This document shows, piece after piece, positions 61,010 to 63,200 of a stretch of DNA of 64,000 nucleotides. The first letter of the stretch is position 1. Every line of letters starts with the position of its first letter. The DNA is from Escherichia phage A7_1: the sequence record OP795442. One strand, given 5' to 3'. A program made the translations under genes and the position numbers. The notes below the pieces were generated by a model. The model was not told the DNA's origin, made no database searches, and saw nothing but the letters and a program-made list of their open reading frames with translations.

Positions 61010-61320
61010 TTAAATATGTAAGATTATTTTGTTGCCTGAGAGATTAGTCATCTTGAAGGCTGGGTGGGCAAATATAAGTTGGAACCATTATACCACCGAC
61101 GCGATTTACGCTTTTGGTTGACTGTGACTAAATGGGATGCCCAGTCCATCCTTCTTTAAAACGGGGAGCCGTCGAAGATTGTCTGATTAGTGATTTACGG
61201 ATCACTATAGTTTTACTACCACGACAATCTTTTACGGTGTACCCCTTGTCATGATGACGAGGTTTAAGGTTATCCTGTCGTTAAATATCCAAAACCTGTT
61301 ACCACCCACAAGAGAATTTA

Positions 61321-61403
61321 GCGCGGGTGTATCTCAACGGTCTTCTAAACCGTCGTTAATCGAGTAATTGGAGTATGAAGGTTCGAGTCCTTTCTCCCGC
61401 GCT
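61321..61403 (+). ncRNA. tRNA-like element, cloverleaf unresolved
   Basis: Perfect GGTTCGAGTCC T-arm and GCGCGGG/CCCGCGC ends but no consistent D or anticodon arm. Confidence 0.25.
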
Positions 61404-61420
61404 AAGTTCTTTTGAATATA

Positions 61421-61492: not shown

Positions 61493-61628
61493 CCATATGA
61501 AGTCGGGTCGCTCCCGATAAGTCGTCGGACTGATGTTCCCTGACTACGAGTTCCCTCAACGATAACGACGTAGATCACAGCAGAAACGGCGCACCCTATT
61601 TCATTTCTTAATACATTTCAATAAGTTC

Positions 61629-61657
61629 TTGACATAATCCTATTATACTGCTAATAT
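61629..61657 (+). promoter_or_regulatory. sigma70-like promoter (TTGACA 61629-61634, TAATAT 61652-61657)
   Basis: 17-nt spacer. Confidence 0.55.
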
Positions 61658-61678: not shown

Positions 61679-62059
61679 GTGTTTATGGCTAAAGCTGAAA
61701 TCGTTACTCGAAAACGCGGTCGGCCTACTACAGAGGAAAGCATTGCAATCAATACTGAGAGAGCAATTCTTCATGCTCGTTCCGAGTTTGCAAGACTTAC
61801 TCCTCAAGCAATTAAAACTCTGGAAGGTCTACTGACTTCCGGTACAGAGAAAGTTAAAGAAACTACTGCGAAGTATATTCTTGAGCAAGCTGAAAAGGCA
61901 AACAATCTGTACACGATGGAAGATAATGAAGAGGATCTGGCAGGAGGAACTACTTCTGCAAATTCAGAAACTCATCAAGGCCCTTCTGATGCATTTAAAG
62001 ATGCTATTCCATTAACTACTCAGATTCGTGAGTATAAAATGGCAGAAGGTGAAGATTAA
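61679..62059 (+). CDS. hypothetical protein (126 aa) with N-terminal RKRGRP basic motif
   Basis: ORF with RBS GAGGTG. Confidence 0.5.
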   Translation: MFMAKAEIVTRKRGRPTTEESIAINTERAILHARSEFARLTPQAIKTLEGLLTSGTEKVKETTAKYILEQAEKANNLYTMEDNEEDLAGGTTSANSETHQGPSDAFKDAIPLTTQIREYKMAEGED

Positions 62060-62297
62060 GGCTCGCAAGGGCCTTTACTAAGAAGTTCTCTTTAAGGTAG
62101 TTGCTTGGTGTAATTTTTCGGCAGATGGCTGCAACCATCCTATCGATAACTTATAGTTAGTGCTGCAAACACTGGCTACCTTAAAGAGAATTTAACTCGT
62201 CGAATAAGGAAGATGCTGATCTCAAAGTGAGGTCACTTACCGCAAGGGGTGTGCATAGACTCCCGCTTCCGAATAGACTATGTGGCGAGATGTATTT

Positions 62298-62376
62298 GGG
62301 GACGTGGCAGAGCGGTCGAATGCGCCTGACTGTAAATTAGGTATCCCACACGGTGGTTCGAATCCATCCGGCCCCA
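62298..62376 (+). tRNA. tRNA-Tyr (GUA), class II
   Basis: Loop CTGTAAA, D-loop GAGCGG-type, T-arm GGTGGTTCGAATCCATC, encoded CCA; one A-G mismatch in acceptor stem. Confidence 0.65.
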
Positions 62377-62382
62377 CCAAAT

Positions 62383-62455
62383 TTTCCGTTAGGCTTACAG
62401 GATAAGATTCCCACAACGTATCGTTGTGATACTGGTTCGAATCCAGTACGGAAAC
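62383..62455 (+). ncRNA. tRNA-like element with non-canonical anticodon arm
   Basis: Perfect acceptor and T-arm, but central 7-bp hairpin CACAACG-TAT-CGTTGTG replaces a canonical anticodon loop. Confidence 0.3.
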
Positions 62456-62582
62456 CAAATTAAGCCGTGATGTGATGTAATCACTGACCTCTTTGAAGGA
62501 TCATGGCATTTTATACAAAAACCTGAATAATTTAGGTTTTAATTCCTGGGGTTCGTAGCCCTATTACTAAGAGGACTTAACT

Positions 62583-63170: not shown

Positions 63171-63200
63171 TCAGCCTCCCTCATTTGGGAGGCTTTTTTA
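63171..63200 (+). terminator. intrinsic terminator after the tRNA cluster
   Basis: Hairpin AGCCTCCC-TCATTT-GGGAGGCT then TTTTTTA. Confidence 0.7.

What the first reader, a model, noticed from the sequence alone, without database searches (positions are those of the whole stretch)
62086..62190. Perfect 15-bp inverted repeat enclosing a 75-nt loop upstream of tRNA-Tyr
TTCTCTTTAAGGTAG (62086-62100) pairs exactly with CTACCTTAAAGAGAA (62176-62190); the loop contains a further small hairpin GCAG-ATGG-CTGC. It lies 27 nt after the stop of ORF 61679..62059 and about 110 nt before tRNA-Tyr. It could be a structured RNA (processing site or regulatory element) or a recombination site.
Basis: seen in the sequence. 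Interest (0 to 1): 0.35.

Follow-up and report, generated by a model that had tools for sequence, protein, structure and literature searches.

The report
Phage RNA antisense to plasmid abi
The inverted repeat is the closing stem of a conserved, roughly 111-nt folded RNA in the phage's tRNA operon, and its core is the exact antisense of the 3' end of abi, the plasmid gene (carried by ColIb-P9) named for aborting phage infection, so it is probably an RNA counter-defence.

Summary
The 15-bp perfect inverted repeat is real. It extends to 18 bp with one G·U pair, and arms this long are rare by chance.

It is helix P1 of a ~111-nt four-way-junction RNA (62083-62193, + strand, same strand as the tRNAs). 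The RNA occurs in 163 phage records (T5-like phages, Stephanstirmvirinae, Vequintavirinae). It is always in a tRNA cluster and usually lies flush against neighbouring tRNAs. Covariation is strong: 97.7% of cells pair, 9 pairs show double changes, and G·U outnumber A·C cells 84 to 4. No Rfam family matches it.

The central ~55 nt (hairpins P2-P4) are homologous, in antisense, to the last ~20 codons and stop codon of a 114-aa membrane-protein gene that NCBI names 'abortive infection protein'. This gene is on ColIb-P9 and about 460 plasmids. Different phages carry cassettes identical to different abi alleles (58/58, 54/54), independently of their scaffold. Phages never carry the rest of abi. T5 and BF23, which ColIb restricts, lack the element.

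Best reading: a stable RNA processed from the tRNA operon that pairs with abi mRNA and blocks abortive infection. The structure and the homology are shown. Expression, processing and the anti-Abi function are inferred.

The parts
62083..62193 (+). The whole structured RNA element (111 nt): four-way junction of P1 closing three hairpins (P2, P3/P4, P5).
   Evidence: The covariance model R1 scores 105.8 bits on the + strand and 36.4 bits on the - strand. Homologues were found in 163 phage records. The comparative structure has an energy of -34.6 to -34.9 kcal/mol, against an MFE of -38.6.
62083..62100 (+). P1 5' arm.
   Evidence: It pairs with 62176-62193 over 18 bp with one G·U. Three P1 pairs show compensatory changes: alignment pair 6/135 is C-G, A-U, G-C or U-G; pair 8/133 is C-G or U-A; pair 15/126 is G-C or A-U.
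62176..62193 (+). P1 3' arm. Its last bases, AAUUU, lie directly 5' of a tRNA in most relatives.
   Evidence: Bases 62176-62178 (CUA) can pair either with 62098-62100 (P1) or with 62154-62156 (P5). The two versions differ by only 0.3 kcal/mol.
62101..62113 (+). P2 hairpin (UUGC-UUGGU-GUAA). This is the 'window/p548a-type' version; most relatives have CUUACUU-UAGCA-GAGUAAG at this position.
   Evidence: The same two P2 versions occur in abi alleles.
62118..62146 (+). P3/P4 extended hairpin: UCGG-CA-GAUGG[CUGCAA]CCAUC-CUA-UCGA.
   Evidence: P3 and P4 carry compensatory changes: UCGG/CCGA to UCAG/CUGA, and GAUGG/CCAUC to AGUGG/CCACU or GAUGA/UCAUC. The P4 loop varies in both length and sequence.
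62154..62178 (+). P5 hairpin: UAGUUAGUG[CUGCAAA]CACUGGCUA. It is part of the phage-specific scaffold.
   Evidence: All P5 cells pair (100%). The closing pair changes from G-C to A-U in 4 sequences, and the loop is variable.
62098..62146 (+). Cassette that is antisense to the stop codon and last ~16 codons of the plasmid abi gene.
   Evidence: 46 of 49 nt are identical to the strand opposite the abi CDS of plasmid p548a. Other phages match other abi alleles over 52/53 to 58/58 nt.
61629..61657 (+). Sigma-70 promoter-like site (TTGACA-17-TAATAT, preceded by TG) that would drive ORF 61685-62059, the element and the downstream tRNAs.
   Evidence: This is a consensus match only, and transcription is inferred.
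62060..62079 (+). Small GC hairpin (GGCUC-GCAA-GGGCC) followed by UUUACU, between the ORF stop and the element. It is at most a weak terminator.
   Evidence: Read directly from the sequence. The terminator scan does not call it. An equivalent hairpin is present in PBES02, LTH01 and UPEC06.
62298..62379 (+). tRNA-Tyr(GTA), the usual downstream partner of the element. Here a clade-specific spacer separates it from the element.
   Evidence: In T5-like phages, PBES02, PsgM04F and phiWec179/190 the element ends 0-2 nt before tRNA-Tyr. The 104-nt spacer occurs in only 5 records, and its fold z-score is -0.9.
63173..63194 (+). Terminator-like hairpin with a T-run after tRNA-Pro. This is the likely end of the transcription unit.

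Best explanation
The inverted repeat is the closing helix (P1) of a ~111-nt non-coding RNA on the + strand. The RNA is co-transcribed with the phage's tRNA genes.

The RNA folds into a four-way junction. It has a phage-specific scaffold (P1 and hairpin P5) that holds a ~55-nt cassette (hairpins P2 and P3/P4). The cassette is the exact antisense of the stop codon and last ~20 codons of abi. abi encodes a 114-aa membrane protein that NCBI names 'abortive infection protein' and is carried by ColIb-P9 and hundreds of other enterobacterial plasmids.

Inferred mechanism. The normal tRNA-processing enzymes cut the RNA out of the tRNA precursor: RNase P acting at the 5' end of the next tRNA, and 3' processing of the preceding tRNA. 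P1 seals both ends of the RNA, so it accumulates. Its two hairpin loops and then the whole cassette pair with abi mRNA. This mimics, or replaces, a cis-antisense RNA of the abi locus. The abi message is then silenced or destroyed, and infection is not aborted.

Specificity lies in the cassette, which phages exchange by homologous recombination to match the abi allele they meet.

Shown here: the structure, the strand, the distribution, the homology and orientation relative to abi, and the cassette exchange. Inferred: transcription, processing, stability, pairing in vivo, and the anti-Abi effect.
For: Structure.
- 19 distinct sequences give 97.7% paired cells and 9 pairs with double changes. When the 3' partners are slid by 1-3 columns, only 37-53% of cells pair and 0-1 pairs show double changes.
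- RNAalifold recovers the same helices.
- G·U cells outnumber A·C cells 84 to 4, which fixes the folded strand as +. R1 scores 105.8 bits on + and 36.4 on -.

Context.
- The element was always in a tRNA cluster and on the tRNA strand in all 20 GenBank loci examined.
- It starts at the CCA end of tRNA-Ser(GCU) in Stephanstirmvirinae, or just after a TTGACT..TATAAT promoter in T5-like phages.
- It ends 0-2 nt before tRNA-Tyr, tRNA-Lys or tRNA-Arg.

Link to abi.
- Window bases 62098-62146 match the strand opposite the abi CDS at 46/49.
- Matches in other phages: PaulScherrer 58/58 and UPEC06 60/62 to the ColIb-P9 allele, Eos 54/54, 'alia' 55/56, tuntematon 52/53, PBES02 67/72, each to a different allele.
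- R1 scores 43-59 bits on the antisense strand of all 9 abi loci tested.
- A search with the ColIb-P9 abi locus finds 138 phage records. All of them cover only positions -17 to +87 around the stop codon, never the rest of the gene. 75 of them are at least 95% identical.
- Scaffold and cassette evolve independently: phi92 versus PaulScherrer is 100% in the scaffold and 84% in the cassette, while UPEC06 versus PaulScherrer is 69% and 100%. W70, a near-identical relative of this window, carries the ColIb-type cassette.
- 'alia' carries two cassettes of different type in one scaffold.

abi and ColIb.
- ColIb-P9 carries the ORF 3.2 kb from the colicin Ib gene.
- ColIb aborts T5 and BF23 infection with loss of membrane potential, and the mechanism is unknown (PMC10644984).
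- T5 and BF23 give no match to R1 and have an unrelated leader in the same slot.
- Predicted duplex energies are allele-specific: -141 to -147 kcal/mol for cognate pairs, -80 to -120 for non-cognate pairs, about -60 for shuffled RNA, and background for the T5 leader.

Precedent. Phage PhiTE escapes the plasmid-borne ToxIN system with RNA mimics of its antitoxin (PMC3594212).
Against: - There is no expression data. Transcription, processing and stability are all inferred.
- The identification of this ORF with the classical ColIb abi/ibf determinant rests on its presence on ColIb-P9 and on the NCBI/UniRef name. I could not read the 1988 abi sequence paper.
- A native cis-antisense RNA of abi is only a candidate. 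The TTGACA is invariant, but the -10 element (TAGCKT) is weak and the scan does not call it. The TTGACA also sits in the loop of a covarying hairpin.
- The ColIb trigger is the T5 A2 protein, even when A2 is carried by lambda. A simple 'antitoxin decays after host shut-off' model is therefore insufficient.
- The Abi C-terminus is not more variable than the rest of the protein: mean entropy 0.86 versus 0.43-1.06 elsewhere. There is no extra signal of an arms race in abi itself.
- The window's own cassette has no perfect abi match in the collections searched; the best is 46/49.
- Orientation is not independent evidence if all copies descend from a single capture event.
- Whether ColIb-type Abi acts on the myoviruses that carry the element is unknown.
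Confidence: 0.5

Rival explanations
1. The element is an ordinary structured spacer or stable by-product RNA of the tRNA operon, like T4 RNA C/D or T5 RNA I/III/IV. It would insulate and protect the tRNA precursor and give a good RNase P leader. On this view the similarity to abi is a historical accident kept alive by recombination, with no anti-defence role.
For: - The element lies flush against tRNAs, and its invariant 3' end AAUUU fits an RNase P leader with U at -1 and A at -4 (the leader preference is from my own knowledge).
- T5 and BF23 fill the same slot with an unrelated ~107-nt leader whose ends also pair.
- T5's annotated stable RNAs are of similar size, have paired termini and sit flush with tRNAs.
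- The functions of T4 RNA C and D are still unknown.
Against: This view does not explain three observations:
- Only the antisense segment of abi is ever found in phages: 138 records, none covering the rest of the gene.
- Unrelated scaffolds carry cassettes 100% identical to particular abi alleles.
- One phage carries two cassettes in tandem.

In this window the element is 104 nt away from the tRNA, so a position flush with the tRNA is not required.
Confidence: 0.27
2. The phage RNA is the trigger rather than the antidote. On this view abi mRNA, or its antisense regulator, senses the phage RNA by base pairing, and Abi is activated.
For: The extensive complementarity between the phage RNA and abi mRNA would allow sensing as well as silencing.
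Against: - The classical ColIb-restricted phages T5 and BF23 lack the element.
- Genetically, their trigger is the A2 protein.
- A trigger should be selected to diverge from abi, yet many phages carry perfect matches and appear to re-acquire them.
Confidence: 0.08
3. The element is a non-functional relic: the decaying 3' end of an abi-like gene once captured by a phage.
For: - Avunavirus 19-1-2 (L019) retains a longer fragment, with ~33 codons readable on the - strand (...LTPVKSGLLWGIGKMVAAIYRKITPSN*).
- The window's - strand still reads MVAAICRKITPSN (and my own translation).
Against: - The element is kept in 163 records across three or more phage groups.
- Covariation is present in P1 and P5, which are not derived from abi coding sequence.
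- The P4 loop varies in length by steps that are not multiples of 3, and no ORF is present in most members.
- G·U pairs lie on the strand antisense to abi.
Confidence: 0.08
4. The repeat acts at the DNA level: a recombination site, cruciform, MITE-like mobile element, replication origin or transcription terminator.
For: The terminal inverted repeat is perfect. The cassette region is recombinogenic.
Against: - There is a single copy in the window, and arm-like motifs occur at chance frequency.
- No target-site duplication is visible.
- The pairing tolerates G·U but not A·C, so selection acts on RNA of one strand.
- The internal hairpins covary.
- No T-run follows P1, and the terminator scan does not call it.
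Confidence: 0.03

Closest known systems
Pseudo-ToxI of Pectobacterium phage PhiTE, an RNA mimic of the ToxI antitoxin of the plasmid-borne ToxIN abortive-infection system (Blower et al. 2012; addendum PMC3594212)
   Same: Both are phage-encoded non-coding RNAs homologous to part of a plasmid-borne Abi locus. In PhiTE the mimic neutralises the system, and escape phages can capture the host sequence by recombination. The cassette exchange seen here is analogous.
   Different: ToxI is a tandem 36-nt repeat that binds the ToxN protein (type III). Here there is no repeat array, and the homology is antisense to the coding 3' end of the effector gene, so the expected mode is RNA-RNA pairing (type I-like). 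The RNA is built into a tRNA operon with its own scaffold. It is a standing feature of many wild phages rather than a laboratory escape mutation. Its function is untested.
Type I toxin-antitoxin systems in which the antisense RNA overlaps the 3' end of a membrane-toxin mRNA (for example B. subtilis txpA/RatA and bsrG/SR4). Their mechanism is cited from my own knowledge.
   Same: The RNA is complementary to the 3' end of an mRNA for a small hydrophobic protein. It has structured hairpins with variable loops, which could start pairing by loop-loop contacts. The abi loci carry a conserved TTGACA pointing antisense into the gene just beyond the stop codon.
   Different: The phage copy acts in trans from another replicon. 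Abi is 114 aa, longer than typical type I toxins. A native antisense transcript and Abi toxicity have not been shown here, and the -10 element is weak.
Small stable RNAs of phage tRNA clusters: T4 RNA C and D (species 1 and 2), and T5 RNA I, III and IV ('stable RNA with unknown functions')
   Same: They are about 100-140 nt, lie on the tRNA strand inside the tRNA cluster, sit flush with tRNAs, and have paired 5' and 3' ends. T5 RNA III also folds as a closing stem with three hairpins. Their functions are unknown.
   Different: There is no sequence or covariance-model similarity: R1 finds nothing in the T5 or T4 tRNA regions, and BLAST finds nothing. None of them is known to match a host defence gene.
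RNA anti-CRISPRs (Racr), phage RNAs that mimic CRISPR repeats (Camara-Wilpert et al. 2023; cited from my own knowledge)
   Same: Both are phage-encoded, non-coding mimics of an RNA component of a host immune system.
   Different: Racr RNAs mimic crRNA repeats and sequester Cas proteins. Nothing here resembles a CRISPR repeat, and the target is an mRNA.

Membership tests
tRNA / tRNA-like RNA (Rfam RF00005, clan CL00001) | Cloverleaf with a 7-bp acceptor stem, a T-arm carrying the GTTCRANYC loop and an anticodon arm, detectable by ARAGORN or the Rfam model | tested here: not met
   ARAGORN calls nothing at 62083-62193. Rfam has no match at E<=1 in the window or at E<=5 in 7 relatives. The four-way topology is shared with tRNA, but no T-loop sequence is present.
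Any described RNA family (Rfam 15, 4227 models) | Match to a curated covariance model | tested here: not met
   No match overlaps the element in the window, in 7 relatives or in the abi locus of ColIb-P9.
Stable RNAs of phage tRNA clusters (T4 RNA C/D, T5 RNA I/III/IV) | Encoded within a tRNA cluster on the tRNA strand, flanked by tRNAs | tested here: met
Stable RNAs of phage tRNA clusters (T4 RNA C/D, T5 RNA I/III/IV) | 5' and 3' ends paired in a terminal helix; about 100-140 nt | tested here: met
   P1 is 15-18 bp and the element is 111-133 nt. T5 RNA III and IV and T4 RNA C fold the same way.
Stable RNAs of phage tRNA clusters (T4 RNA C/D, T5 RNA I/III/IV) | Sequence or structure homology to one of the described RNAs | tested here: not met
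   R1 gives no hit in the T5 (L008) or T4 (L021) tRNA regions. blastn of the T5 and T4 RNAs against the window finds only the rnaD homologue at 61504-61595.
Stable RNAs of phage tRNA clusters (T4 RNA C/D, T5 RNA I/III/IV) | Accumulates as a discrete stable RNA in infected cells | not testable with these tools
   Needs a Northern blot or RNA-seq.
Type I TA / cis-antisense regulator of a membrane-toxin gene | Extended complementarity to the toxin mRNA | tested here: met
   Complementarity runs from 46/49 (window) up to 58/58 (PaulScherrer versus ColIb-P9) against the abi mRNA strand, covering the stop codon.
Type I TA / cis-antisense regulator of a membrane-toxin gene | The target encodes a small hydrophobic membrane protein | tested here: inconclusive
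   The protein is 114 aa with long hydrophobic stretches. It has no Pfam, NCBIfam or PHROG family and only a weak PycTM match (E 0.0015). It is longer than classical type I toxins.
Type I TA / cis-antisense regulator of a membrane-toxin gene | The antisense RNA is transcribed from the locus itself | tested here: inconclusive
   TGTTGACATTC is invariant in 9 of 9 alleles, about 30 nt beyond the stop and pointing into abi. The -10 element is weak and the scan does not call it. The phage copy is encoded in trans.
Type I TA / cis-antisense regulator of a membrane-toxin gene | The RNA represses toxin expression or toxicity | not testable with these tools
   Needs genetics.
Type III antitoxin mimic (PhiTE pseudo-ToxI) | Tandem repeats homologous to the ToxI 36-nt unit | tested here: not met
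   There is no tandem or direct repeat in or near the element. The homology is to abi, not to toxI.
MITE / transposon with terminal inverted repeats | Multiple dispersed copies, target-site duplication, terminal repeats conserved with a variable interior | tested here: not met
   There is one copy in 64 kb. Arm motifs occur at chance frequency. The interior is conserved and covaries.
Intrinsic terminator | GC-rich hairpin immediately followed by a U-run | tested here: not met
   P1 is AU-rich and is followed by AACUCG. The scan does not call it.

The most novel reading that the evidence does not exclude
Large virulent enterobacterial phages (T5-like phages, phi92/phAPEC8-like phages and rV5 relatives) carry, inside their tRNA operons, a modular anti-defence RNA. 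It has a constant scaffold (P1 and P5) that is excised by the tRNA-processing machinery. It also has an exchangeable ~55-nt antisense cassette that silences the ColIb-type abi gene in an allele-specific way. If so, the abi system, whose mechanism is still unknown decades after its discovery, would be a membrane effector controlled by a cis-antisense RNA (type I TA-like). Phages and plasmids would then trade the specificity cassette by recombination in an ongoing arms race.
Probability: 0.4. Interest if true: 0.85.

Novelty: new variant of a known kind. Interest (0 to 1): 0.72.

Why it matters
Abortive infection of T5 and BF23 by ColIb plasmids has been known since the 1970s. A 2023 paper still states that the products and mechanism of ibf/abi are unidentified.

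This analysis points to a specific region of the abi locus as functionally important: the stop codon and last ~20 codons on the strand opposite abi. More than 130 wild phages have copied exactly that region, in the orientation that makes antisense RNA, and have placed it in a highly expressed, self-processing context.

That turns two open questions into simple experiments with phages and plasmids already in collections:
- What do the small RNAs of phage tRNA clusters do?
- How is ColIb Abi controlled and evaded?

If confirmed, the element would be an RNA counter-defence that works by antisense pairing to a defence-gene mRNA and has a swappable specificity module. It would also matter practically for predicting the host range of therapeutic T5-like, phi92-like and rV5-like phages on strains carrying IncI plasmids.

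If the anti-Abi function is wrong, the finding is still a well-supported new family of structured phage RNAs that is absent from Rfam.

Tried and rejected
- **Known RNA families.** Rfam was searched at permissive thresholds on the window, on 7 relatives and on the abi locus. Only tRNAs and noise were found.
- **tRNA or tRNA-like identity.** Rejected.
- **Homology to T5 RNA I, III, IV, 1, 2, 2H and 3, the T5 tRNA-Tyr leader, or T4 RNA C/D.** None for the element. This search did reveal an rnaD homologue elsewhere in the window.
- **Dispersed repeat or 'processing motif' idea for the arms.** Matches to AAGTTNTYTTTAA and TTAAARANAATTT occur at chance frequency. One arm-like pair does flank the tRNA-like gene at 61323-61401.
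- **Loop-loop (P4-P5) kissing within the RNA.** The window's UGCA/UGCA pairing is not kept in relatives (by eye).
Neither is conserved.
- **The 104-nt spacer before tRNA-Tyr as a second structured RNA.** Its z-score is -0.9 and it occurs in only 5 records.
- **Pattern scans of other collections.** IMG/VR, metagenome and GTDB genome scans added only 4 true copies (L012, L024, L034, L041). Every bacterial-genome hit was a chance match.
- **Abi C-terminus as hypervariable (arms-race signal).** Not supported.
- **Strict promoter scan for a native abi antisense promoter.** Negative.
- **Literature searches.** No description of this RNA or of an abi antisense RNA was found. The older ColIb abi papers are not in the library.
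Full report
**1. The observation**

TTCTCTTTAAGGTAG (62086-62100) is the perfect reverse complement of CTACCTTAAAGAGAA (62176-62190), with 75 nt between the arms. The pairing extends to 18 bp (62083-62100 / 62176-62193) with one G·U pair.

It is one of only two perfect inverted repeats of 12 bp or more with a loop of 150 nt or less in the window. Only 3 of 200 Markov simulations of the window reached an arm of 15 bp or more. As RNA, the segment folds with a z-score of -5.0.

The stop codon of the upstream ORF is at 62057-62059, and tRNA-Tyr is at 62298-62379.

**2. What the thing is**

The window is from a Vequintavirinae-like coliphage. Its nearest records are A73, W70, A5-4, LTH01 and UPEC06.

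The 111-nt segment 62083-62193 is far more widely conserved than its flanks. blastn finds it in 163 phage records. These include:
- T5-like Tequintavirus: HildyBeyeler, phiLLS, Eos and others.
- Stephanstirmvirinae: phi92, PaulScherrer, phAPEC8-like phages.
- Certrevirus PBES02.
- A phage listed as infecting Pseudomonas.

By contrast, the 104-nt spacer that follows the element occurs in only 5 records.

In every locus I fetched, the element lies in a tRNA cluster on the tRNA strand.
- In Stephanstirmvirinae it begins at the CCA end of tRNA-Ser(GCU).
- In T5-like phages it begins about 15 nt after a TTGACT-17-TATAAT promoter. This is the slot of T5 promoter P14a.
- It ends 0-2 nt before tRNA-Tyr, tRNA-Lys or tRNA-Arg.

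No annotation covers it in any record. No Rfam 15 family matches it, in the window or in seven relatives.

**3. Structure**

Nineteen distinct sequences align to a four-way junction. The window coordinates of the helices are:
- P2: a small hairpin, 62101-62113.
- P3/P4: an extended hairpin, 62118-62146.
- P5: a hairpin, 62154-62178, directly abutting the 3' strand of P1.

RNAalifold recovers these helices.

Counting pairs on my structure gives 97.7% paired cells, 9 pairs with compensatory double changes and 33 such cells. No shuffle out of 500 reaches these values. When the 3' partners are slid by 1-3 columns, only 37-53% of cells pair and 0-1 compensatory pairs remain.

Examples of compensatory change:
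- P1 position 6 is C-G, A-U, G-C or U-G.
- P3 changes from UCGG/CCGA to UCAG/CUGA.
- P4 changes from GAUGG/CCAUC to AGUGG/CCACU.
- The closing pair of P5 changes from G-C to A-U.

G·U cells outnumber A·C cells 84 to 4. The selected fold is therefore on the + strand, which points to RNA rather than duplex DNA. A covariance model (R1) scores the window copy at 105.8 bits on the + strand and 36.4 on the - strand, and finds no second copy in the window.

For the window sequence, the comparative structure has an energy of -34.6 to -34.9 kcal/mol against an MFE of -38.6. The three bases CUA (62176-62178) can close either P1 or P5.

**4. Comparison with known tRNA-cluster RNAs**

The T5 record annotates several ~105-nt 'stable RNAs with unknown functions' (RNA I, III, IV and others), flush with tRNAs. 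T4 has RNA C and RNA D, whose roles are still unknown. They share the architecture of paired termini and multibranch interior; T5 RNA III also has a closing stem and three hairpins.

None is homologous to this element.

T5 and BF23 fill the P14a-tRNA-Tyr slot with an unrelated ~107-nt leader whose ends also pair.

**5. The unexpected link**

A search of complete E. coli genomes found no chromosomal match. It did find ten plasmids in which 49 nt (window 62098-62146, covering P2 and P3/P4) match at 94%.

The match lies on the strand opposite a 114-aa CDS and covers its stop codon and last ~16 codons. The CDS is annotated 'abortive infection protein' or 'hypothetical protein'. It sits convergent with a DUF4238 gene.

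The protein is hydrophobic. It has no Pfam, NCBIfam or PHROG family and only a weak PycTM match. It belongs to a family of 75 or more clusters in Enterobacteriaceae that sources name 'abortive infection protein'. The locus is present in 460 PLSDB plasmids, mostly conjugative.

ColIb-P9 itself carries the ORF at 13401-13745, 3.2 kb from the colicin Ib gene. That exact protein is seen on 1000 or more contigs.

ColIb plasmids are the classical cause of abortive infection of T5 and BF23. The trigger is the pre-early A2 protein and the outcome is membrane depolarisation. [quoted passage not shown]

A DUF4238 protein from a P2 hotspot protects against T7. This fits old reports that ColIb inhibits both T5 and T7.

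**6. Allele matching**

I compared the antisense strand of nine abi alleles with twenty phage elements.

| Phage | Match | abi allele |
|---|---|---|
| PaulScherrer | 58/58 | ColIb-P9 |
| UPEC06 | 60/62 | ColIb-P9 |
| Eos | 54/54 | P0059 |
| 'alia', second cassette | 55/56 | pTB201 |
| tuntematon | 52/53 | pTB201 |
| PBES02 | 67/72 | P0052 |
| phi92 | 66/71, starting 14 nt beyond the stop | P0059 |
| this window | 46/49 | p548a |

R1 scores 43-59 bits on the antisense strand of every abi locus.

The reciprocal search, ColIb-P9 abi locus against all phages, hits 138 records. Every hit is confined to positions -17 to +87 around the stop codon. None contains the rest of the gene, and 75 are at least 95% identical.

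Scaffold and cassette have different histories:
- phi92 versus PaulScherrer: scaffold 100%, cassette 84%.
- UPEC06 versus PaulScherrer: scaffold 69%, cassette 100%.
- PHB05 versus JLBYU50: scaffold 99%, cassette 78%.

W70, 96.6% identical to this window over 1 kb, carries the ColIb-type cassette. One Justusliebigvirus carries two cassettes of different type in tandem within one scaffold. An Avunavirus keeps a longer abi 3' fragment, and another phage has an internal deletion.

The variable P4 loop corresponds to the variable residues of the Abi C-terminus: KMVAAI, KMVGAI, KMAATI and KVVTAT.

**7. Mechanism (inferred)**

The phage RNA is made on the tRNA strand, so it is complementary to abi mRNA.

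I propose the following sequence of events.
1. The RNA is transcribed from the promoter-like site at 61629-61657, through ORF 61685-62059 (phrog_3330, unknown function), and on to the tRNAs. The unit probably ends at the terminator-like site at 63173-63194.
2. The tRNA-processing enzymes release it, and P1 seals both of its ends.
3. It pairs with abi mRNA across the stop codon, probably starting from the P2 and P4 loops. This prevents production of Abi.

Predicted duplex energies are allele-specific. Cognate pairs give -141 to -147 kcal/mol, non-cognate pairs -80 to -120, shuffled RNA about -60, and the T5 leader is at background.

The abi loci also have an invariant TGTTGACATTC about 30 nt beyond the stop, pointing antisense. 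In addition, the antisense strand folds into closing stem, P2 and P3/P4, with covarying closing stems. The locus may therefore make its own cis-antisense RNA, which the phage RNA would mimic. The closest precedent is PhiTE pseudo-ToxI.

T5 and BF23, the phages known to be restricted by ColIb, lack the element. This is consistent with the model but does not prove it.

**8. Caveats**

- No expression or phenotype data exist.
- The native antisense promoter has a weak -10 element, fails the scan, and lies in the loop of a covarying hairpin.
- The A2 protein alone triggers ColIb Abi, so the control logic of abi is unclear.
- The Abi C-terminus is not unusually variable.
- The equation of this ORF with the genetically defined abi/ibf rests on its location on ColIb-P9 and on database names.
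- The window's cassette has no perfect partner among the alleles sampled.

**9. Verdict**

- The repeat is real. It is the closing helix of a new, well-supported family of structured phage RNAs (confidence about 0.9).
- Its core is antisense-homologous to the 3' end of the plasmid abi gene, and it is exchanged as a cassette (observed directly, about 0.95).
- That it works as an anti-Abi RNA is the best available explanation (about 0.5).
- The main rival is a functionless or purely structural spacer kept similar to abi by recombination.

Noticed in passing
window 61497-61595 (+): There is a homologue of T4 RNA D (species 2 stable RNA) immediately after tRNA-Met. blastn gives 90.9% over 44 nt and 96% over 25 nt against T4 rnaD. 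Rfam does not detect it.
   Followed up: partly
window 61309-61414 (+): A second inverted repeat (19 nt, 89% complementary) flanks a weak tRNA-like gene at 61323-61401 (Rfam 33.9 bits; ARAGORN does not call it). Its flanks, AAGAGAATTT upstream and AAGTTCTTTT downstream, resemble the 3' and 5' arms of P1 in swapped order. It looks as if a tRNA once sat between two copies of the element, or as if leader and trailer extend the acceptor stem.
   Followed up: partly
window 62384-62460 (+): There is an uncalled tRNA-like RNA directly after tRNA-Tyr. It has the acceptor-like stem UUCCGU/ACGGAA, the T-arm CUGGUUCGAAUCCAG and an ACCA end. Its fold z-score is -3.0.
   Followed up: partly
window 8048-8063 / 8137-8152: The only other long perfect inverted repeat in the window has 16-bp arms (GACACTATAAAACGAG) separated by 73 nt, in a region that looks non-coding.
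   Followed up: no
L012 9853-10021 (-) and L024 3875-4043 (-) (Justusliebigvirus 'alia'-like contigs): This 169-nt variant carries two P2-P4 cassettes in tandem inside one P1/P5 scaffold, one of window/p548a type and one of pTB201 type. It may have dual specificity.
   Followed up: partly
L019 577-~805 (Avunavirus 19-1-2) and L020 578-641 (EP57): L019 has P5 replaced by ~150 nt that include a longer relic of the abi 3' end (about 33 codons on the - strand). L020 is a 64-nt internal-deletion derivative that keeps P1 and P5.
   Followed up: partly
L058 (ColIb-P9) 13226-13400 and the same region of 8 other abi loci: Downstream of abi there are two conserved hairpins with covariation. One (GCGGCAGTGGTC...GACCACCGCCG) could be a shared terminator for the convergent abi and DUF4238 genes. 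The other (GATGGTGA...TCACCATC) presents the invariant TGTTGACAT in its loop. abi also has a TTGACA-17-TAACAT promoter-like site about 320 nt upstream of its start codon.
   Followed up: partly
L008 9429-9535 (-) (T5) and L063 10576-~10685 (-) (BF23): T5 and BF23 have an unannotated ~107-nt leader with paired ends between promoter P14a and tRNA-Tyr, in the slot where other T5-like phages carry the abi-antisense element. This slot is polymorphic among T5-like phages.
   Followed up: partly
L001 3860-3960 (LTH01) versus window 62290-62380: LTH01 shares the window's sequence up to GGGGACG at the start of tRNA-Tyr. It then has different sequence before a different tRNA-Tyr, which suggests replacement of the tRNA gene.
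   Followed up: no
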